34,173 nucleotides of DNA from contig JAQTUD010000004.1 in NCBI GenBank assembly GCA_028710405.1, positions 1 to 34,173 on the forward strand. Direction: 5' to 3'. The stretch comes from Candidatus Omnitrophota bacterium (GTDB lineage: Bacteria > Omnitrophota > Gorgyraeia > Gygaellales > Profunditerraquicolaceae). Below the pieces are notes generated by a model, which made no database searches, was not told the origin of the DNA, and saw only the letters and a program-made list of their open reading frames with translations. Within the stretch, counting starts at the first letter, position 1. Each line of letters starts with the position of its first letter. Positions 2,614 to 19,707 of the stretch are shown one piece after another. Position numbers and translations under genes: made by a program.

Positions 2614-2979
2614 ATGAGGGGGATTATAATATTCTTTATATTTATAATCTTGAGCACAGTTAATTTTGCATATGCGGAAAGTCAAGCAGATAAATTAGAG
2701 TTGATCGACAAACAAGATAATCCCAATATTATATACAAATCTAATCAGTATCAACTCATTATTGATAAACTAAAAGAATACACTACAGCAACAAGCGAAG
2801 AAGAAATCACTGCTTTAATATTTAAGGTTTACAGTGATTTAGAAAATAAATCTCCGGGACTTACTATTTATGAAGTTGCCGAAGAGATTAAAAAAACAGC
2901 AGGAATTCTCTACGATCAAGATGGCGGGAAGAAGCAAGATATTAGAAATATGGCAGCATTTTATATGACAACAAAATAA
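2614..2979 (+). CDS. Hypothetical small secreted protein (signal peptide), AT-rich
   Basis: 121-aa ORF. N-terminal IIIFFIFIILSTVNFAYA signal-like segment. No recognisable domain. Confidence 0.55.
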   Translation: MRGIIIFFIFIILSTVNFAYAESQADKLELIDKQDNPNIIYKSNQYQLIIDKLKEYTTATSEEEITALIFKVYSDLENKSPGLTIYEVAEEIKKTAGILYDQDGGKKQDIRNMAAFYMTTK

Positions 2980-3201
2980 GGGTAATTTCGGGGACGCAGT
3001 ACTTAATTATAAATCTTAGCGGGTGGATTGGCTGGGATTTCGAGGGACGTGGAGACAAGGAGCGGGCAAGGTTCACCCTATAAATAGATTGCTGTGAGAG
3101 CGACGCAGCCGACCCGAGCGAAGCCCCGCCACGCTGGGGCGGGGCGAGCGTTCCCGAGAAACCCAGACAAGCCAGCCGCGAGCGTTGGAAAGGAGTTAAG
3201 T

Positions 3202-3660
3202 ATGAAGAAATTATTCGTATTATCGTTAATCGTTTTATTTCTTACTCCTGCGCTTTGGGCGCAAGGGGAAGAGGATTTTTCGACGCCACTAGCGGCATTC
3301 CAAACTTATATCCGCGCTTGTCAGAGTCATGATTTTGATGCCGTAGACAATTGTTTCACCAAAGAGTTCAACAGGTTTAAAAAATCCAACAAGGAATATA
3401 TGAAACACCGCAACATGGGGCAATTGGATAATGAGCTAAGTTGCGTCTTGAATAAGGAGATCCAGGTTGACCTGCACAGCAGAAAAGCGATCATCTATCT
3501 CTACCCGGAAGATAGAAAAACGTCCCCTTATTTTATGACCAAAGAAGGCGGCCAATGGAAGATAGACGGAATGTTCATGTGGAATAACATAATTTTCGAT
3601 CAAAAAGACGAGTGGCATTGGGGCAACGGGAACAAGGAAAAGGCGTTTTTGAACAGCTGA
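3202..3660 (+). CDS. Hypothetical secreted protein; start moved to the internal ATG after the RBS
   Basis: AGGAG at 3191-3195, then ATG 3202 and signal peptide MKKLFVLSLIVLFLTPALWAQ. The longer ORF from 3094 would translate the GC-rich hairpin block (MRATQPTRAKPRHAGAGRA...) and is unlikely. Confidence 0.6.
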   Translation: MKKLFVLSLIVLFLTPALWAQGEEDFSTPLAAFQTYIRACQSHDFDAVDNCFTKEFNRFKKSNKEYMKHRNMGQLDNELSCVLNKEIQVDLHSRKAIIYLYPEDRKTSPYFMTKEGGQWKIDGMFMWNNIIFDQKDEWHWGNGNKEKAFLNS

Positions 3661-14628: not shown

Positions 14629-15312
14629 TTGAAAAAAATAGCGCTGGTTTTATTTTTTTCTGTATTCATCGGCCTGGCTTACGCGGATACGTTATATCTT
14701 AAAAATGGACGTAAGATCACAGGAGTGGTAAAAAGCGAGAATGACCGGGTGGTAGAATTAGAGGTCTGCCGGGGGATAGTAAAATTTAATAAGAGCGAGA
14801 TCGAAAAAATAGAGAGGGCGGCCGCTGAAGAGGTTGAGGTAATGCGCATGAAGTGGGAGGAGAGTGCTGCCGCCTCCCAGGAAAGAATAGTCCAGCAGCA
14901 GGAAAAGATAGAGAAGGCCCCGCGGAGAGTAGATTTTTCACGGGAAGGCCGAGGGATAACTTTAGATGTGTTGTTGAATAAAAAGATAGAGGCCAGCCTG
15001 GTCTTGGATACTGGCGCTTCAGTGGTAGTATTAAGAAAGGGTATGGCGGGGAAGTTGGGGATAGACTTGGATAAGGTCAGGCCGGACGCGAAATTGACCG
15101 TGGCTGACGGACGCCAGGTTGATGCCAAGCACATTATCTTAAAGAGTGTCAAGGTGCAGGGCGTAGAGGCGGAAAATGTGGATGCCGCCCTGATGATGGA
15201 GGAAGTAGGAGACGTTAGTTTCGCGGACGGATTATTGGGGATGTCTTTTTTAAGCAGGTTTAATTTTAAGATCGATAACCAAGAAAAAGAGTTGGTCCTG
15301 GAGAAGTTGTAA
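14629..15312 (+). CDS. Retropepsin-like (clan AA) aspartic protease with signal peptide; TTG start
   Basis: [12 protein letters not shown] active-site D-T-G-A motif in the C-terminal half. N-terminal signal [23 protein letters not shown] 6 nt before TTG. Confidence 0.6.
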
Positions 15313-15728
15313 TGCGTTCATATAGGCAATATTTATGGTTTAATACCGCTGGGCGCCAGGAATTTATCAATATCACCTCCCAGGTGGAAGAAGTGTTGAA
15401 GAAGAGTGGGATAAAAGAAGGGTTATGCTTAGTCAATGCCATGCATATTACCGCCAGTGTTTTTATTAATGATGACGAAGGCGGCCTGCACCAGGATTTC
15501 AGCGCCTGGTTGGAAAAATTGGCTCCTTACGGTAAAGATAAATATAAACATAATTTAAGCGGAGAGGATAACGGGGATAGCCATTTAAAGAGGACGATCA
15601 TGGGCCGGGAAGTGGTGGTGGCGGTTACCGAGGGAAAATTGGATTTCGGGCCCTGGGAACAGATATTTTACGCTGAGTTTGACGGCATGCGCAAGAAACG
15701 CGTGTTGGTAAAGATTATCGGAGAATAG
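15312..15728 (+). CDS. yjbQ: YjbQ/UPF0047 family protein (secondary thiamine-phosphate synthase-like)
   Basis: [26 protein letters not shown]...[35 protein letters not shown] matches UPF0047. TAATG coupling. Confidence 0.8.
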
Positions 15729-15730
15729 TA

Positions 15731-16669
15731 ATGAAGATAAAAGATACCGAGATTAAAGTCATCTGTGGCGATATTACGGAATTAAAGGTTGATGCCATTG
15801 TAAATGCCGCCAATAATAAGTTAGTGATGGGCGGGGGAGTGGCGGGGGCGATCAAAAGAAAGGGCGGCAAGAGCATTGAGGATGAGGCGGTAAAAGCTGG
15901 CCCGATAAAGATTGGCGAGGCGGTGGCGACCGGTGCGGGAAACCTGCCGGCCAAATATGTGATCCACGCCGCGACCATGGGGATGGACTTTCAGACCGAT
16001 GAGATAAAGATCCGGGATTCTGCAGCCAGCGCCCTGCGGGTCGCGCGGGAATTAAAAGTAAAATCAATTGCCTTTCCGGCTTTAGGTTGCGGCACAGGAG
16101 GCTTTCCGCTATTGGCCTCAGCAAAGGTGATGGCGCAAGAGGTCTTCCGGCAATTAAAAGAAGAGGAGGTGGGGCTTAAGGAAATAATCTTTTGTCTTTA
16201 TGATAAAGAAGCGCAGGAGGTTTTCCAGAAGGGAGTGATCGGTTACCTGGAATATATCACCCAGAAGTTGCAAAATGGCCCTTTTACCACGGTAGATGCG
16301 ATAATCGAGATTTCCGGGGGGATTGTAATAATTGAGCGCAGCAATCCGCCCTTTGGCTACGCGCTTCCCGGAGGTTTTGTGGATTATGGAGAGAGCCTGG
16401 AGGAGGCGGTAAAGAGAGAGGCCAAGGAGGAGACTAACCTGGATTTAGTGGGCCTGGAACAGTTCCACACTTATTCGGCACCGCAGCGTGACCCGCGTTT
16501 TCACACTATCGGGACGGTATTTATTGCCCAGGGCAAGGGAAACCCCAAGGCTGGCGATGACGCTAAGGCCTTGAAAATAGTGGAGTTAAAAGATATAGAA
16601 AAATTAGATTTTGCCTTTGACCATAAAGAGATCATCCGGGATTATATAAAAGCGGCCGTCTCGCGTTAG
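15731..16669 (+). CDS. Macro domain - NUDIX hydrolase fusion (ADP-ribose processing)
   Basis: N-terminal IKVICGDITELKVDAIVNAANNKLVMGGGVAGAIKRKGG is a macro domain. C-terminal GGFVDYGESLEEAVKREAKEETNL is a Nudix box. Confidence 0.75.
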   Translation: MKIKDTEIKVICGDITELKVDAIVNAANNKLVMGGGVAGAIKRKGGKSIEDEAVKAGPIKIGEAVATGAGNLPAKYVIHAATMGMDFQTDEIKIRDSAASALRVARELKVKSIAFPALGCGTGGFPLLASAKVMAQEVFRQLKEEEVGLKEIIFCLYDKEAQEVFQKGVIGYLEYITQKLQNGPFTTVDAIIEISGGIVIIERSNPPFGYALPGGFVDYGESLEEAVKREAKEETNLDLVGLEQFHTYSAPQRDPRFHTIGTVFIAQGKGNPKAGDDAKALKIVELKDIEKLDFAFDHKEIIRDYIKAAVSR

Positions 16670-16679
16670 GGGACACTGT

Positions 16680-16728
16680 CCCGATTGGATTGGAAACTGT
16701 TTCCCGATTGAAGCGGAAACAGTTTCCC
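16680..16728. promoter_or_regulatory. Tandem 23-bp direct repeat (2 units + partial), each junction forming the palindrome GGAAAC-N-GTTTCC (candidate operator/iteron-like sites)
   Basis: cccgattggattggaaactgttt / cccgattgaagcggaaacagttt / ccc. Palindromes at 16692-16704 and 16715-16727. Located 15-60 bp upstream of the -35 of the promoter at 16744. Confidence 0.45.
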
Positions 16729-16743
16729 AGGGTTTTGGCCTCT

Positions 16744-16771
16744 TGAAAAAAGCGGTAAAATATGTTATACT
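16744..16771 (+). promoter_or_regulatory. Sigma70-type promoter with extended -10
   Basis: -35 TTGAAA (16744-16749), 16-nt spacer, TGt-TATACT (TG 16763-16764, -10 16766-16771). Confidence 0.5.
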
Positions 16772-16777
16772 ATAGGT

Positions 16778-16947
16778 GTAAAAAGACACTTTGACAATTT
16801 GGTAAAAATGTCCTACTGAAAAAGGCAAACTAGCAGTAATGCTGGGGCGCAAAGCGACAGCCCCGACGTAAGTCGGGGGGCTGCGTTGCCAAAGAGGCTT
16901 GAAACCCTAAAGACTGCCTTTAGGGTTTATTTGTTTAGCCCTAAGTT
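16778..16947 (+). ncRNA. Candidate sRNA / structured leader of about 170 nt from promoter to first intrinsic terminator
   Basis: Transcript predicted from the promoter above. Contains an irregular hairpin of about 14 bp capped by GNRA tetraloop gtaa (16848-16891) and a 10-codon uORF (atg 16839..taa 16871). Ends at terminator 16913-16947. Confidence 0.35.
16913..16947 (+). terminator. Rho-independent terminator (11-bp stem + T-rich tail)
   Basis: aaaccctaaag-actgc-ctttagggttt followed by atttgttt. Confidence 0.6.
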
Positions 16948-17001
16948 TGCCTTAAGTTCAGAAAAAAGGTGAATTTAGGGCTTTTTTATTGGTAAAAACC
17001 A
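16947..17001 (+). terminator. Second tandem intrinsic terminator (stem agccctaa/ttagggct, long loop, T7 tail)
   Basis: agccctaa (16947-16954) ... ttagggct (16985-16992), then tttttta tt. Confidence 0.5.
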
Positions 17002-17048
17002 ACCCCACCAGCCACGGAAGGTGTTTTTAGAGAGGGGTCAGATGGTCC

Positions 17049-17072
17049 CGCCCTTTACAAAAGGGCGGGGCG
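17049..17072. promoter_or_regulatory. Perfect 9-bp inverted repeat CCCGCCCTT-tacaa-AAGGGCGGG immediately upstream of the RHH gene RBS (operator candidate or RNA hairpin)
   Basis: Seen directly. Followed by gcgcctGGAGGtgaatagatATG. Confidence 0.4.
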
Positions 17073-17089
17073 CCTGGAGGTGAATAGAT

Positions 17090-17353
17090 ATGAAAGAGAA
17101 GATAAATACCCACAGAGTAGTGACTTTTCTGACCCGGGAAGAATTAGATTTTTTGGATAAGCTGGAGAAGGATATGATGTTCTCCACGGGCAGGCATATC
17201 TCCCGTTCCCAGATCATCCAGGATATGGCCGGCCTGCTCACTGAGACCCAGATGGATGCATCAGGCGTAAAGGATGATACAGAATTACGCAGCAGGATAA
17301 TGCAGGCTATCGCTAAATTAGTCAAGGAAGAACAAGACAAAAACAGGGGGTAG
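17090..17353 (+). CDS. Ribbon-helix-helix (CopG/Arc/MetJ-like) DNA-binding protein
   Basis: HRVVTFLTREELDFLDKLEKDM...GRHISRSQIIQDMAGLL fits a beta-strand / helix A / G-x-S N-cap / helix B RHH pattern. GGAGG RBS. Confidence 0.65.
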   Translation: MKEKINTHRVVTFLTREELDFLDKLEKDMMFSTGRHISRSQIIQDMAGLLTETQMDASGVKDDTELRSRIMQAIAKLVKEEQDKNRG

Positions 17354-17357
17354 GCTG

Positions 17358-17549
17358 ATGAAAACCTACACTGAAGAAGCCAGGTTAAAGACATTAGCGT
17401 CTAAGGGGGGAGTAATGTATTTTCTGGTAGAGAAACCGGACCGGATCTACCGCGGAATGGTCTTATTATCCCCGGCGCACAACCATAACCGCAAGAGGAT
17501 CGTCTGTATGAAGGTATATAAGATAAATGAAGAAGGGAGGGCTAAATGA
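17358..17549 (+). CDS. Hypothetical 63-aa protein, translationally coupled downstream of the RHH gene
   Basis: AGGGGGTAGG RBS. ORF MKTYTEEARLKTLASKGGVMYFLVEKPDRIYRGMVLLSPAHNHNRKRIVCMKVYKINEEGRAK. No recognisable domain. Its stop overlaps the next ATG (ATGA). Confidence 0.45.
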   Translation: MKTYTEEARLKTLASKGGVMYFLVEKPDRIYRGMVLLSPAHNHNRKRIVCMKVYKINEEGRAK

Positions 17550-17656
17550 GGCGTTTTTCCCGTAGATCACACAAGAAGGCCAGAAAGAATGATAAAAAAC
17601 ACACCGGGTTCCTTGAGGCGCTCAGGCTTTATGCCGGTATGCCGGTGGAAGTATAA
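17546..17656 (+). CDS. Basic His/Arg/Lys-rich micropeptide (36 aa), paralog 1
   Basis: MRRFSRRSHKKARKNDKKHTGFLEALRLYAGMPVEV. GGGAGGG RBS 8 nt upstream. ATGA coupling to the upstream ORF. Confidence 0.4.
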   Translation: MRRFSRRSHKKARKNDKKHTGFLEALRLYAGMPVEV

Positions 17657-17671
17657 ACAGGAGGGATAAAA

Positions 17672-17770
17672 ATGAAGAGAACTCATCGCAGCGGGCACAA
17701 AAAACACAGGAGGCAGAAAAGACAATTTGGTATAATGGCCGCGTTAAAATGCATCTTCGGATGTCGGTAA
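17672..17770 (+). CDS. Basic His/Arg/Lys-rich micropeptide (32 aa), paralog 2
   Basis: MKRTHRSGHKKHRRQKRQFGIMAALKCIFGCR. GGAGGG RBS 7 nt upstream. Same frame as paralog 1, separated by TAA + 15 nt. Shares the M[RK]R..R[SR][SG]HKK[AH]R[KR] pattern. Confidence 0.4.
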   Translation: MKRTHRSGHKKHRRQKRQFGIMAALKCIFGCR

Positions 17771-17796
17771 ATCCCGGCACCCGTGGCGATGCCGCA

Positions 17797-17830
17797 AGGC
17801 CCGCTCTCGTTTGGGAGCGGGCCTTTTTAT
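17797..17830. terminator. Intrinsic terminator shared by the + strand micropeptide operon and the convergent helicase
   Basis: aggcccgctc-tcgtttgg-gagcgggcc followed by TTTTTATT on the + strand. The helicase stop codon lies inside the tail. Confidence 0.6.
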
Positions 17831-19707
17831 TATGCCTCGCGCAGCTGTTTCTCCGCGTCTATCACGTCGCGGTTAGTCACCCGGACAACCTCTTTTATTT
17901 TTTCTTTTAAGCCAGGCGAACATACCTTGGCATCCATGATCTCTCTTAAGATCTGTATCGCCATCCTGAAATAGCGCACTACTTCGCCCTCATCGGTATC
18001 AGTGAATTGTAATATCTTATCAAAGTTTGTCCCGCGCAGCCATCCTTCCATGCTTGAACTTAAATGAAAATACGGCTGTTTGCTAAAAGGATAAATCTTG
18101 TATTTCTGCTCCCGGTGTTTTATTAGTTCATATATCTCTTCGCAGGCATTTTTGACCTTATGGCCGGTCTTTGAGAGGCTGGTTACGCGTTGGTTCTTTC
18201 TGGGCTCAAAGACTGCCGCCGAGGCGATGATCCCTAAACCGAACTCATCTAATTGTTCCAGGATATTCTGGTCATAAAGTTCCGCCAGGATAAGCTCGTA
18301 ACCGTAGACATTCTTGGCGAATTGGCCTTTTTTGGTCAGGGCCCCTTTATCAATGTAACCCCATTCCTTAAGTAAATTTAATTTTGCCTCCATCAGCCTT
18401 AAGGCTTCTCTCTGGTGGTTTTTATGGGACTGGAAATAATGCAGCGATAGAGGATAGATTTTAAATAGCTCTTCTTTATGTTTTTCATAGAGGTTCAGGA
18501 TAGTAGCATAAGAAGTATTGAACTGGCTTCTGACCTGCTCGGCTCGGCCGTAAATAACGCGTTTTGCCTCGTCAAAATTTATGCGGTTTAAATTCAGGCG
18601 GCAGTAGACAAAACCTTCCTTGTCTATCCCCCGCCGTCCGGCGCGCCCGGCCATCTGGTAGAAATCCCGTGTTTTAAGATTACGCACATAGTGGCCGTAG
18701 AATTTGCGCAGTTCATCCAGGCATACCGAGCGGCTGGGCATATTTATCCCCAGGGCAAAGGTCTCGGTAGTGAATATGACTTTGAGCAGGCGGCTGGTAA
18801 ATAACCGTTCAATGACTTCTTTGAGGGTAGGAAGCATCCCGGCATGATGATAGGCAATACCCTGCTGTATGAGCGGATACATATTCTGCGCGCTGCGCTC
18901 GTGCTTTAAGTCAAAGCGTTCGCAGAGGGAGTTATACAGGTCGGTAATCTCGGCTCTTTCTTTGCCGTTAAGGAAATTAAAACTTTGTAATTCCTGGGCC
19001 AGGTCCTCGGCGCGCCTTCTCCCGAAGACAAAATAGATGCAAGGCAGGCCCTCCTTCTGGCGCAGGTAATTGATCAGCGTATTCATTTTATTCGGCCTGG
19101 CGAATTTGCCCCTTCTTACTTTGTCGATCTTGTCCACGATCTCATTTGAGCTCTGGAAGAAAAAGTGCAAGGGGACAGGGCGTTTCTCTTCAATTACCGT
19201 TTTTACCGGTTTATGGTGTATGGATTCTATCCAGGAGGCAAGTTCATTTATGTTGGGTATGGTTGCCGAGAGCGCCAGCAACTTCATATGTTTGGGAAGG
19301 AATATCAGGGATTCCTCCCAGACTGTCCCGCGCTCGGGATTGTCAATATAATGCACCTCGTCAAAGATGATCCAGGAGTACATCTGGAGGCTCTCCGGTT
19401 CATCCAGCACTTTATTACGGAAGATCTCGGTAGTCATGATCAATACTGGGGCCTGGGGGTTGATAGAGACATCCCCGGTCAATATACCGATGTTATCACC
19501 GAATTGCTGGTAGAAATCGCGGAATTTCTGGTTAGAGAGGGCTTTGATCGGGGCAGTGTAGATGACCCCCAGGTTATTCTGGATGGAGTTATTGATCACA
19601 TACTCGGCAATAGCGGTTTTTCCCGCTCCGGTGGGCGCCGAGACGATTACCGAACAGCCCTGGTTTATATAATCAATAGATTCCTCCTGGAAGCGGTCAT
19701 ATATCAT
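17830..19707 (-). CDS. SF2 DEVH-box helicase, Ski2/Hel308-like
   Basis: Motif I SAPTGAGKT, motif II DEVH, motif VI QMAGRAGRRG. 625 aa. Only minus-strand gene in the window. Confidence 0.8.
   Translation of the reverse strand: MIYDRFQEESIDYINQGCSVIVSAPTGAGKTAIAEYVINNSIQNNLGVIYTAPIKALSNQKFRDFYQQFGDNIGILTGDVSINPQAPVLIMTTEIFRNKVLDEPESLQMYSWIIFDEVHYIDNPERGTVWEESLIFLPKHMKLLALSATIPNINELASWIESIHHKPVKTVIEEKRPVPLHFFFQSSNEIVDKIDKVRRGKFARPNKMNTLINYLRQKEGLPCIYFVFGRRRAEDLAQELQSFNFLNGKERAEITDLYNSLCERFDLKHERSAQNMYPLIQQGIAYHHAGMLPTLKEVIERLFTSRLLKVIFTTETFALGINMPSRSVCLDELRKFYGHYVRNLKTRDFYQMAGRAGRRGIDKEGFVYCRLNLNRINFDEAKRVIYGRAEQVRSQFNTSYATILNLYEKHKEELFKIYPLSLHYFQSHKNHQREALRLMEAKLNLLKEWGYIDKGALTKKGQFAKNVYGYELILAELYDQNILEQLDEFGLGIIASAAVFEPRKNQRVTSLSKTGHKVKNACEEIYELIKHREQKYKIYPFSKQPYFHLSSSMEGWLRGTNFDKILQFTDTDEGEVVRYFRMAIQILREIMDAKVCSPGLKEKIKEVVRVTNRDVIDAEKQLREA

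What the first reader, a model, noticed from the sequence alone, without database searches (positions are those of the whole stretch)
17546..17770. Two tandem, in-frame paralogous His/Arg/Lys-rich micropeptides
MRRFSRRSHKKARKNDKKHTGFLEALRLYAGMPVEV and MKRTHRSGHKKHRRQKRQFGIMAALKCIFGCR each have a strong, well-spaced Shine-Dalgarno. They share an N-terminal M[RK]R..R[SR][SG]HKK[AH]R[KR] block and lie in the same reading frame, separated by TAA plus 15 nt. Their composition (extremely basic N-terminus, amphipathic/hydrophobic C-terminus with Cys in the second) suggests nucleic-acid or membrane interaction. They are not recognisable ribosomal proteins (bL34 shares only the MKRT start). Tandem duplication implies selection for the coding capacity.
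Basis: seen in the sequence. Interest (0 to 1): 0.6.

Follow-up and report, generated by a model that had tools for sequence, protein, structure and literature searches.

The report
c-di-GMP riboswitch-controlled cationic micropeptides
The two tiny, very basic open reading frames are real, conserved genes that close a small operon controlled by a c-di-GMP-sensing riboswitch in Omnitrophota bacteria, so this second messenger probably acts here through unannotated 32-40-residue peptides whose target is still unknown.

Summary
Both ORFs exist exactly as described (17546-17656, 36 aa; 17672-17770, 32 aa). They are real genes. The 36-aa peptide belongs to a family of about 44 sequence clusters. Members have a variable polycationic head (K+R+H about 59%, net charge about +10) and a near-invariant tail, FLEALRLYAGMPVG[VI]. 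Codon third positions vary 2.5-4.6 times more than positions 1 and 2, which shows selection on the protein. The 32-aa peptide has orthologues (tail L[KR]CIFGCR, dN/dS 0.15) and is a diverged paralogue.

A c-di-GMP-I riboswitch (16814-16893, 73 bits) and a terminator precede a four-gene operon: an 87-aa ribbon-helix-helix (RHH) protein, a 63-aa beta-protein, pep1 and pep2. A strong terminator follows.

Across 24 lineages the riboswitch-peptide link recurs. In some genomes the peptide(s) are the riboswitch's only cargo. Function is unproven. I favour effector peptides that combine a polyanion-binding tail with a docking helix, expressed when c-di-GMP is low. The closest analogue is the Clostridioides difficile CD1980.2 small-protein family. 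No match was found in Pfam, NCBIfam, PADLOC or PDB.

The parts
16743..16771 (+). sigma-70-like promoter (TTGAAA-17-TATACT, with an extended -10 TG)
   Evidence: Consensus scan, 10 of 12 matches. Its position 43 nt upstream of the aptamer fits. This is a pattern match only.
16814..16893 (+). c-di-GMP-I (GEMM-I) riboswitch aptamer
   Evidence: Rfam RF01051, 73.3 bits against a gathering score of 35, E 9e-13, full-length match. The same aptamer class lies upstream of homologous operons in most related loci.
16902..16928 (+). first expression-platform hairpin (AAACCCUAAAGACUGCCUUUAGGGUUU)
   Evidence: This is the terminator in orthologous leaders, where a U6-U8 run follows it. Its loop and 3' arm (UGCCUUU) are complementary to the aptamer P1 5' strand (AAAGGCA), an alternative pairing that costs 1-11 kcal/mol more than the MFE.
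16937..16991 (+). second, 17-bp intrinsic terminator hairpin plus U6 tract
   Evidence: Folding. Its 5' arm carries GUUUGCCU, complementary to the aptamer's conserved AGGCAAAC. The same 8-mer occurs downstream of the aptamer in 8 of 29 leaders.
17047..17069 (+). 10-bp GC-rich hairpin just 5' of the SD of the first gene
   Evidence: Read from the sequence and from folding. It is identical in L045 and L046. Its role is unknown.
17090..17353 (+). 87-aa ribbon-helix-helix (RHH) protein gene
17358..17549 (+). 63-aa basic small protein gene (helix plus three beta strands)
17546..17656 (+). pep1, a 36-aa type A cationic micropeptide (tail FLEALRLYAGMPVEV)
   Evidence: Family of 35 called proteins and 44 cluster representatives. 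Summed codon entropies are 7.0, 3.8 and 17.6 bits for positions 1, 2 and 3. dN/dS 0.31 against L045.
17672..17770 (+). pep2, a 32-aa paralogous micropeptide (tail ALKCIFGCR)
   Evidence: Orthologues in L045, L046 and L038 with a conserved L[KR]CIFGCR tail, an in-frame codon indel, and dN/dS 0.15. Homology to type A is bridged by L038. No gene with this exact product is on record.
17796..17832 (+). operon terminator (13-bp GC-rich stem plus T-run)
   Evidence: It lies between pep2 and the convergent helicase gene, which ends at 17830.

Best explanation
Both ORFs are translated genes. They encode members of a family of 32-40-residue polycationic micropeptides, seen so far only in Omnitrophota-type genomes, that are cargo of a c-di-GMP-I riboswitch.

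Shown:
- The promoter is followed by an aptamer and a terminator-type expression platform. Then comes a polycistronic unit (RHH DNA-binding protein, 63-aa beta-protein, pep1, pep2) closed by a strong terminator.
- The peptides are under protein-level purifying selection.
- The link between riboswitch and peptide recurs across lineages. In some genomes the peptide(s) are the only genes behind the riboswitch.

Inferred:
- The ligand is c-di-GMP.
- Ligand binding locks helix P1 and lets the terminator form, so this is an OFF switch and the peptides are made when c-di-GMP is low (about 55% confidence).
- Each peptide has two modules. The first is a roughly 20-residue tail with net charge about +10 and almost no acidic residues, conserved in composition but not in sequence, which binds a polyanion. 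The second is a near-invariant 15-residue C-terminal helix-Pro motif (F-L-x-x-L-R-L-Y-A-G-M-P-V), which docks onto a conserved partner or self-associates.
- The paralogues (pep2 with a CIFGCR tail; type B with a YLDILAG tail) keep the first half of the helix and change the end. This suggests altered partner specificity or hetero-pairing.

My preferred reading, at about 35-40%, is that the polyanion is nucleic acid. The peptides would then act with or beside the co-expressed RHH protein as small modulators of the nucleoid or of transcription.
For: - Riboswitch: 73 bits in the window. The same class lies upstream of the peptide unit in 15 of 22 assessable peptide lineages at the gathering score, plus 2 below threshold.
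- Minimal units: L042, and L050 (where the peptide is the first gene behind the aptamer), pair the riboswitch with a type A peptide. L047 has riboswitch, type B and type A with no RHH or 63-aa gene, at the same syntenic site between the Macro-NUDIX gene and the DSHCT helicase.
- Coding selection: codon-position entropies of 7.0, 3.8 and 17.6 bits over 14 codons in 21 genes, with Arg and Leu switching between codon families. dN/dS is 0.15-0.31, pS is 0.7 to about 1.0 against pN 0.26-0.30 in the comparison with L038, and the indel is in frame. SD motifs are conserved upstream.
- Family size and shape: 44 representatives, nearly all 34-45 aa.
- Tail composition: K 23%, R 22%, H 13%, D+E 1%, net charge +9.7. 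The C-terminal helix has mean hydrophobicity 0.73 and hydrophobic moment 0.43.
- RHH fold of the operon partner.
- Tight coupling of RHH and peptide genes: overlapping or nearly abutting stop and start in L036, L040, L044 and L029.
- Precedent for an RHH nucleoid protein in c-di-GMP signalling: CdbA (PMC7156744).
- OFF logic: the conserved terminator hairpin follows the aptamer, and its loop and 3' arm mimic the P1 3' strand. The GTTTGCCT element is present in 8 of 29 leaders. The C. difficile small-protein riboswitches are OFF switches (bioRxiv 10.64898/2026.06.10.731418).
Against: - There is no direct evidence of translation, of ligand binding, or of any molecular target.
- Six lineages carry the peptide without an adjacent RHH gene. 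Many RHH operons lack peptides (L002, L003, L005, L010 and the distant clade L011-L026). The peptide C-terminal motif is the same whether or not an RHH gene is adjacent. An obligate RHH-peptide complex is therefore not indicated.
- One protein (P0181) carries the peptide module directly in front of a signal-peptide-like hydrophobic core. The only characterised analogue (C. difficile) is membrane-associated. Both facts favour a location at the membrane.
- Equilibrium folding always forms the terminator, and the alternative pairing costs 1-11 kcal/mol more. The ON/OFF direction is therefore not settled.
- Several orthologous aptamers score slightly better on the 'GGC' variant model. As far as I know, the ligand of that variant has not been verified.
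Confidence: 0.5

Rival explanations
1. The peptides are membrane-associated small regulators, functionally like the C. difficile CD1980.2/CD2309 family. The polybasic tail binds anionic lipid head groups at the cytoplasmic face. The hydrophobic C-terminal helix inserts at the interface and contacts a membrane protein.
For: - The architecture matches: a basic N-terminal part, a hydrophobic C-terminus, paralogous copies, and a class I c-di-GMP riboswitch upstream. The C. difficile proteins are shown to be membrane-associated (bioRxiv 10.64898/2026.06.10.731418).
- The C-terminal segment is very hydrophobic, with mean hydrophobicity 0.70-0.84.
- In P0181/L053 the peptide module is fused directly to a signal-peptide-like hydrophobic core, next to a PilZ gene.
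Against: - The apolar stretch is only 9-15 residues and contains E, R, G and P, which is too short for a transmembrane helix.
- Residue-by-residue invariance (R-L-Y-A-G-M-P-V) is unusual for a generic lipid anchor.
- A tail of +10 with 13% His looks more like a nucleic-acid binder.
- The P0181 fusion is a single contig.
- Sequence homology to the C. difficile family was not tested; I did not have those sequences.
Confidence: 0.27
2. The peptides are toxin-like or antimicrobial. The RHH protein would act as antitoxin and repressor, and the cationic peptides as small toxins (or as leaderless cationic peptides used against hosts or prey). c-di-GMP would gate their production.
For: - The RHH C-terminal half is acidic and the peptides are strongly basic (read from the sequences).
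- Tandem paralogous cationic peptides recall two-peptide leaderless bacteriocins (general knowledge).
Against: - No PADLOC or Pfam toxin match.
- The locus is syntenic and vertically conserved between the Macro-NUDIX and helicase genes across divergent lineages. It is not patchy or mobile.
- No viral hits.
- No transporter or immunity genes nearby.
- Stand-alone peptides occur without an RHH gene.
- Gene order varies, and the peptide precedes the RHH gene in L029 and L050.
Confidence: 0.12
3. The peptides are ribosome- or RNA-associated basic micro-proteins. They would work like bL34, bS22, Thx or hibernation factors by binding rRNA, or like an arginine-rich motif by binding a specific RNA.
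For: The composition (K+R+H about 59% of the tail) and the size resemble very small ribosomal proteins.
Against: - No sequence match to any PDB chain, ribosomal proteins included, nor to Pfam or NCBIfam.
- Control by c-di-GMP rather than a growth-rate signal.
- Patchy presence and variable copy number.
- A hydrophobic conserved tail is atypical for rRNA-binding micro-proteins.
Confidence: 0.07
4. The ORFs are not functional proteins. They would be chance ORFs, an RNA element, or cis-acting leader or arrest peptides whose translation regulates another gene.
For: They are short, and the source annotation lacks them. A conserved C-terminal segment ending near Pro superficially recalls arrest peptides such as SecM or SpeFL (general knowledge).
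Against: - There is a strong codon-position signature, and orthologues are conserved over saturated synonymous divergence.
- These are the last genes of the operon and are followed by a terminator and a convergent gene. In L042 and L047 they are the only genes, so there is nothing downstream to regulate.
- No Rfam family reaches its gathering score across 17546-17770.
Confidence: 0.04

Closest known systems
C. difficile CD1980.2/CD2309 family of c-di-GMP riboswitch-regulated small proteins (bioRxiv 10.64898/2026.06.10.731418)
   Same: Both are small, previously unannotated proteins directly downstream of class I c-di-GMP riboswitches with terminator-type control. Both have a positively charged N-terminal part and a hydrophobic C-terminal segment. 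Both exist as paralogous copies. Neither has a recognisable domain.
   Different: The C. difficile proteins are 58 aa, with a predicted four-helix bundle and an 18-residue C-terminal helix. They are dispersed as monocistronic copies in a Firmicute, and are shown to be membrane-associated and to promote sporulation. Here the peptides are 32-40 aa with a far more cationic tail (+10) and a 15-residue invariant motif. They are often tandem and often co-operonic with an RHH protein, and the host is Omnitrophota, where sporulation is not known. Homology was not tested, and the authors report no homologues outside C. difficile.
CdbA, the c-di-GMP-binding RHH nucleoid-associated protein of Myxococcus xanthus (PMC7156744)
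   Same: An RHH DNA-binding protein is wired into c-di-GMP signalling. This is relevant to the 87-aa operon partner and to the nucleoid model.
   Different: CdbA senses c-di-GMP by binding it directly. Here the signal enters through a riboswitch. No sequence similarity was tested. CdbA has no associated micropeptide that I know of.
Type II toxin-antitoxin operons with RHH antitoxins (ParD, RelB, CopG/MazE-like)
   Same: An RHH gene is followed by a tightly coupled small gene. The fold hits are to antitoxin DNA-binding domains.
   Different: The downstream products are 32-40-aa peptides with no known toxin family. Control is by riboswitch. The chromosomal position is syntenic and conserved. Gene order varies and stand-alone peptides exist.
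Very small basic ribosomal proteins (bL34, bL36, bS22, Thx)
   Same: Size and extreme basicity. Pep2 starts with MKRT, like bL34.
   Different: No detectable sequence relationship. The peptides have a conserved hydrophobic C-terminal motif, lie behind a second-messenger riboswitch, and vary in copy number.
Regulatory arrest or leader peptides (SecM, SpeFL, TnaC)
   Same: A short ORF with a variable N-terminal part and a highly conserved C-terminal 15-mer containing Pro.
   Different: These peptides sit at the 3' end of the transcription unit, or alone, with no downstream gene to regulate.

Membership tests
c-di-GMP-I (GEMM-I) riboswitch regulon | Aptamer matching the Rfam covariance model above the gathering score, upstream on the same strand | tested here: met
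   RF01051 at 73.3 bits against a gathering score of 35, at 16814-16893. The aptamer recurs upstream of homologous units.
c-di-GMP-I (GEMM-I) riboswitch regulon | Expression platform linking the aptamer to downstream gene expression | tested here: met
   Terminator hairpins with U-tracts lie 9-45 nt after the aptamer and before the first gene. The ON/OFF direction is only inferred.
c-di-GMP-I (GEMM-I) riboswitch regulon | Specific binding of c-di-GMP | not testable with these tools
   This needs in-line probing or ITC. Orthologous aptamers score about equally on RF01051 and the GGC variant RF03167.
C. difficile CD1980.2-type riboswitch-regulated small proteins | Gene immediately downstream of a class I c-di-GMP riboswitch | tested here: met
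   In L042, L047 and L050 the peptide is the first ORF after the aptamer. In the window the peptides are genes 3 and 4 of the riboswitch operon.
C. difficile CD1980.2-type riboswitch-regulated small proteins | About 58 aa with an 18-residue C-terminal hydrophobic helix giving membrane association | tested here: not met
   The peptides are 32-40 aa. The hydrophobic stretch is 9-15 residues and is interrupted by E, R, G and P. Membrane association itself cannot be tested here.
C. difficile CD1980.2-type riboswitch-regulated small proteins | Sequence homology to CD1980.2 | not tested
The authors state there are no homologues outside C. difficile.
Ribosomal micro-proteins (bL34, bL36, bS22, Thx) | Match to the family profile or to solved ribosomal chains | tested here: not met
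   No Pfam or NCBIfam hit at E up to 0.1 and 10 respectively. The type A profile finds no PDB chain at E up to 10.
Type II toxin-antitoxin module with RHH antitoxin | RHH-fold DNA-binding protein encoded directly upstream of, and coupled to, the second gene | tested here: met
Type II toxin-antitoxin module with RHH antitoxin | Downstream gene belongs to a known toxin family, and the module is mobile or patchy | tested here: not met
   No Pfam or PADLOC match. Synteny is conserved. Gene order is variable.
Type I toxins and small membrane toxins (Hok, Fst, TisB type) | Single transmembrane helix of about 18 or more apolar residues | tested here: not met
   The longest apolar run is about 9 residues, and the tail carries +10 charge.
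Leader or arrest peptides | Located upstream of the gene they regulate | tested here: not met
   These are the last ORFs before the terminator at 17796-17825 and a convergent gene. They are the sole ORFs behind the aptamer in L042 and L047.
Ribbon-helix-helix superfamily (for the 87-aa operon partner) | An N-terminal beta-strand followed by two helices, with structural similarity to RHH domains | tested here: met

The most novel reading that the evidence does not exclude
In Omnitrophota (ultra-small, possibly host-dependent bacteria), c-di-GMP signalling is carried out largely by riboswitch-gated micropeptides. A roughly 35-residue peptide with a +10 tail and an invariant docking helix would be a direct effector that reorganises the nucleoid, or a membrane machine, when c-di-GMP falls. 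Diverged tandem paralogues would tune partner choice. Taken with the unrelated C. difficile family, this would make 'second-messenger riboswitch to micropeptide' a convergent, widespread and so far overlooked signalling architecture.
Probability: 0.3. Interest if true: 0.75.

Novelty: new variant of a known kind. Interest (0 to 1): 0.6.

Why it matters
Most known outputs of c-di-GMP riboswitches are pili, flagella, adhesins or enzymes. Only one very recent study, in C. difficile, shows small proteins as the cargo.

This finding adds an independent micropeptide family with strong evolutionary support in an uncultivated phylum. It is largely absent from annotation: the 63-aa product and pep2 are not on record in the assembly gene index at all, and pep1 is recorded only on a short Logan contig, not on the 34-kb source contig. 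In some genomes these peptides are the riboswitch's only cargo.

It gives a concrete, synthesisable 36-mer and a defined RNA switch with which to ask how Omnitrophota read c-di-GMP. It also shows that gene callers miss functional second-messenger effectors below 40 residues.

Tried and rejected
1. Pfam, NCBIfam and PADLOC scans of all four small proteins gave nothing meaningful.
2. Profile searches against PDB sequences for the RHH, 63-aa and peptide families gave nothing significant.
Single-chain prediction of the peptide was not attempted.
It was repeated with other alignments.
6. Equilibrium folding of the leader, including 5' truncations, always kept the terminator, so it could not show the switch direction. 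An enforced alternative pairing is 1-11 kcal/mol above the MFE.
7. A viral-contig scan for the peptide motif found no relatives.
8. A search for a conserved RHH operator upstream of the promoter found a 23-nt tandem repeat and palindrome in the window only, not conserved in L038, L008 or L009. It is probably the terminator of the upstream gene.
9. Stop-codon read-through fusing the two in-frame ORFs is rejected, because the frame relation is not conserved.
10. The leader or arrest-peptide idea is rejected because of the position at the operon end.
11. Literature searches for an Omnitrophota riboswitch or micropeptide description found nothing.
Full report
**Observation.** The first runs 17546-17656 (+) and encodes MRRFSRRSHKKARKNDKKHTGFLEALRLYAGMPVEV. 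The second runs 17672-17770 (+) and encodes MKRTHRSGHKKHRRQKRQFGIMAALKCIFGCR. They share a reading frame and are separated by TAA plus 15 nt. Each has a Shine-Dalgarno sequence (GGGAGG and AGGAGG) 5-8 nt upstream. The pep1 ATG overlaps the TGA of the preceding 63-aa ORF (ATGA). Among 78 ATG ORFs of 25-45 aa in the window, only pep2 combines an SD-like site with K+R+H of at least 40%; pep1 has 36%.

An Rfam scan finds one element in the whole window: a full-length c-di-GMP-I riboswitch aptamer at 16814-16893, scoring 73.3 bits against a gathering score of 35.

- A sigma-70-like promoter lies at 16743-16771.
- Two hairpins follow the aptamer. The second is a 17-bp stem with a U6 tract.
- Four closely packed + strand ORFs come next, with no internal terminator: 87 aa (17090-17353), 63 aa (17358-17549), pep1 and pep2.
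- A 13-bp GC-rich terminator at 17796-17825 closes the unit, just before a convergent DEAD/DSHCT helicase gene.

The peptides are therefore the distal genes of a riboswitch-controlled operon. A database entry identical to the 87-aa protein, found on a 34,173-nt contig, is named as coming from a Candidatus Omnitrophica MAG.

**Are they genes?** I approached this from the 87-aa protein. It has 107 homologues, and every one that a source names is labelled Omnitrophica/Omnitrophota. With it I fetched 27 genome loci. In the closer relatives, basic micropeptides follow the operon. They have a variable N-terminal part and a tail FLEA[LV]RLYAGMPVG[VI], which I call type A.

- A profile of these peptides recovered 35 called proteins.
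- A full HMMER scan of 1.84 billion cluster representatives recovered 44 clusters at E up to 1e-3. Nearly all are 34-45 aa and all carry the same C-terminal motif.
- A motif scan of metagenomes added 17 loci.
- Over the 14 C-terminal codons of 21 genes, summed nucleotide entropy is 7.0, 3.8 and 17.6 bits for codon positions 1, 2 and 3. Arg alternates between AGG and CGN, and Leu between CTN and TTR. That is the signature of selection on the amino-acid sequence, not on an RNA.
- In pairwise comparisons, pep1 has dN/dS 0.31 against L045, and pS 0.72 with pN 0.30 against L038.

**Pep2.**

- Orthologues occur in L045 and L046 (MKRTHRNGHKKQRRQKKQFGIIDALKCIFGCR) and in L038 (MKRMHRTTHRRYKKHLKRQYSFLDVLRCIFGCR).
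- dN/dS is 0.15, synonymous sites are saturated against L038, and the indel is an in-frame codon.
- Against the type A profile, window pep2 scores only 13.5 bits. One of 2000 full shuffles and 14 of 2000 segment-preserving shuffles reach that score. Its L038 orthologue scores 29.6 bits with 0 of 2000. Paralogy is therefore supported through the orthologue.
- No gene with exactly the pep2 or the 63-aa product is on record in the assembly gene index. Pep1 is recorded only on a short Logan contig. All three are thus effectively unannotated on the source contig.

**Family anatomy.** The N-terminal region averages 22 residues. Its composition is K 23%, R 22%, H 13%, and D+E 1%, giving net charge +9.7. 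It is conserved in composition but not in sequence. The C-terminal 15-mer is near-invariant at F, L, R, L, Y, A, G, M, P and V. It is strongly hydrophobic, with mean hydrophobicity 0.73 and hydrophobic moment 0.43.

Second, diverged copies occur in 7 of 24 lineages.

- The CIFGCR type follows type A in the window lineage and in L038.
- A YVGLAVGGA variant follows type A in L037.
- A Y[IL]D[IF]LAG type (type B) precedes type A in L004, L009, L028 and L047.

The two peptides are in frame in only 3 of these 7 lineages, so that feature is incidental.

**Link to the riboswitch.** GEMM-I-class aptamers (RF01051, or its GGC variant RF03167, with similar scores) lie upstream of the 87-aa homologue in 16 of the first 20 genome loci scanned, a set that includes a distant clade lacking micropeptides. 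Among peptide-bearing lineages, 15 of 22 assessable ones have the aptamer at the gathering score, and 2 more have it below threshold.

The most telling cases share the window's synteny: dUTPase, Asp protease, YjbQ, Macro-NUDIX, an optional DUF192 gene, then the riboswitch unit, a convergent DSHCT helicase, and DUF3786. Three of them lack the RHH and 63-aa genes.

- L042 has the riboswitch and one type A peptide.
- L047 has the riboswitch, then type B, then type A.
- L051 has a sub-threshold aptamer and one peptide.

Gene order elsewhere varies: RHH-p63-pep, RHH-pep with overlapping stop and start, and pep-RHH. The peptide is therefore a direct riboswitch cargo, and the RHH and 63-aa genes are frequent but dispensable companions.

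**Operon partners.**

- **The 63-aa protein.** Its model (pLDDT 72, from a shallow alignment) is a helix plus three beta strands with no informative structural neighbour.

**Regulatory direction.** In the window's clade, a conserved hairpin (ACCCUAAAGAUUGCCUUUAGGGU followed by a U-run) lies 10-15 nt after the aptamer in most leaders; in L050 it lies further downstream. Its loop and 3' arm (UUGCCUUUA) mimic the P1 3' strand and can pair with the P1 5' strand (UAAAGGCAA). Enforcing that pairing costs 1.1-11 kcal/mol relative to the MFE.

In the window a second terminator carries GUUUGCCU in its 5' arm, complementary to the aptamer's AGGCAAAC. That 8-mer recurs in 8 of 29 leaders, against about 0.1 expected. 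This fits an OFF switch, in which ligand locks P1 and the terminator forms. The C. difficile small-protein riboswitches work that way (bioRxiv 10.64898/2026.06.10.731418). Equilibrium folding does not prove it. I rate the OFF direction at about 55%.

**Mechanism.** The following is shown: these are translated-type genes under purifying selection, they sit behind a c-di-GMP-class riboswitch, they are co-expressed with an RHH protein in the window, and each has two modules. The rest is inferred: the polycationic tail binds a polyanion, and the invariant helix-Pro motif docks on a conserved partner or mediates self- or hetero-association, with the paralogues altering the last eight residues.

I favour nucleic acid as the polyanion, at 35-40%. 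The reasons are the charge density, the tight genetic coupling to a DNA-binding RHH protein in 16 of 24 lineages, and the precedent of the RHH nucleoid protein CdbA in c-di-GMP signalling (PMC7156744).

The main rival is a location at the membrane surface, at about 27%. It draws support from the C. difficile analogue, which is experimentally membrane-associated. It also draws support from one protein, P0181. There the peptide module runs straight into a signal-peptide-like hydrophobic core, next to a PilZ gene.

Other readings rank lower.

- A toxin-antitoxin-like or antimicrobial reading (about 12%) fits the RHH-first layout but not the conserved synteny, the variable gene order, or the absence of toxin, defence and viral matches.
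- A ribosomal or RNA-binding role (about 7%) lacks any sequence support.
- Non-coding or leader-peptide readings are essentially excluded.

**Comparison and novelty.** The closest known system is the C. difficile CD1980.2/CD2309 family. Both are small proteins behind class I c-di-GMP riboswitches, with a basic N-terminus, a hydrophobic C-terminus and paralogous copies. The family here differs in size (32-40 aa against 58 aa), in lacking a helix of transmembrane length, in its much more cationic tail, in its invariant docking motif, in its tandem arrangement, in its RHH partner and in its phylum. Homology was not tested.

I found no description of this family or of Omnitrophota riboswitch cargo in the searchable literature. 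I therefore class it as a new variant of a recently recognised kind, riboswitch-gated small-protein effectors, and rate its interest at about 0.6.

Noticed in passing
window 17047-17069: A perfect 10-bp GC-rich hairpin (CCCGCCCUUU-ACA-AAAGGGCGGG) sits immediately 5' of the SD of the 87-aa gene, well downstream of the riboswitch terminators. It is identical in L045 and L046. L038 has a different sequence that is still hairpin-like. It may be an mRNA-stabilising or processing element.
   Followed up: partly
window 16679-16727: A 23-nt tandem repeat contains two palindromes, GGAAAC[T/A]GTTTCC, which together form a 13-bp inverted repeat followed by GGGTTTTGG. It lies between the Macro-NUDIX gene and the operon promoter. 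It is probably the upstream gene's terminator rather than an RHH operator, because it is not conserved in L038, L008 or L009.
   Followed up: partly
L053 677-2761 (Logan SRR22387819; protein P0181): The first 34 residues of a 694-aa LamG/MopE-repeat protein are a type A peptide (MRQHYHSRSPRAKRHHKKRFSFLEILRRYVGMPV). They run directly into a signal-peptide-like core (LLSLVVLFSL...DAVA|K). The gene upstream encodes a PilZ-domain protein, a c-di-GMP receptor domain. This is a single contig.
   Followed up: partly
L011-L026 (for example L012 2279-3116): A distant Omnitrophota clade has the same riboswitch and RHH homologue (about 108 aa). It is followed not by micropeptides but by a 105-140-aa protein with a conserved PLEYGDNFPV...W.P.VPWRFP motif and one hydrophobic segment.
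   Followed up: no
L002, L003, L010 (about 2975-3340) and L005 (about 640-900): In these relatives the riboswitch-RHH-p63 operon continues with a signal-peptide-bearing, Q/E-rich coiled-coil protein instead of a micropeptide. L001 and L005 come from the same MAG, so one genome can carry both operon versions.
   Followed up: no
L041 125-1702: The operon is truncated. Only a fragment of the 63-aa gene and a type A peptide lacking its N-terminus remain, next to a 442-aa transposase-like ORF on the opposite strand. An insertion sequence has apparently disrupted it.
   Followed up: no
L029 1035-1117, L030 1380-1462, L036 1408-1527: A second GEMM-I-class aptamer lies just downstream of the peptide and RHH unit. 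This suggests many riboswitch copies per Omnitrophota genome. Their cargo was not identified because the contigs end.
   Followed up: partly
window 14629-19707 and L042, L047, L050, L051: The gene neighbourhood is conserved around the peptide locus: retropepsin-like Asp protease, YjbQ/UPF0047, a Macro-NUDIX fusion protein, an optional DUF192 gene, then a convergent Ski2-like DEAD/DSHCT helicase and DUF3786. The Macro-NUDIX fusion and a bacterial DSHCT helicase deserve a look in their own right.
   Followed up: no
L004, L009, L011, L013-L016, L018, L020-L022, L027 (record titles): Several public MAG records that carry this Omnitrophota-type operon are labelled 'uncultured Planctomycetales' or 'uncultured Planctomycetia bacterium'. 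Protein identity and synteny suggest the taxonomic labels are imprecise.
   Followed up: no
window 16814-16893 and orthologous leaders: Orthologous aptamers flip between best hits to RF01051 (c-di-GMP-I) and RF03167 (the c-di-GMP-I-GGC variant) with similar scores. The window aptamer reads GGCGCAAAG where the RF01051 consensus has GACGCAAAG. Ligand specificity should be checked experimentally.
   Followed up: partly
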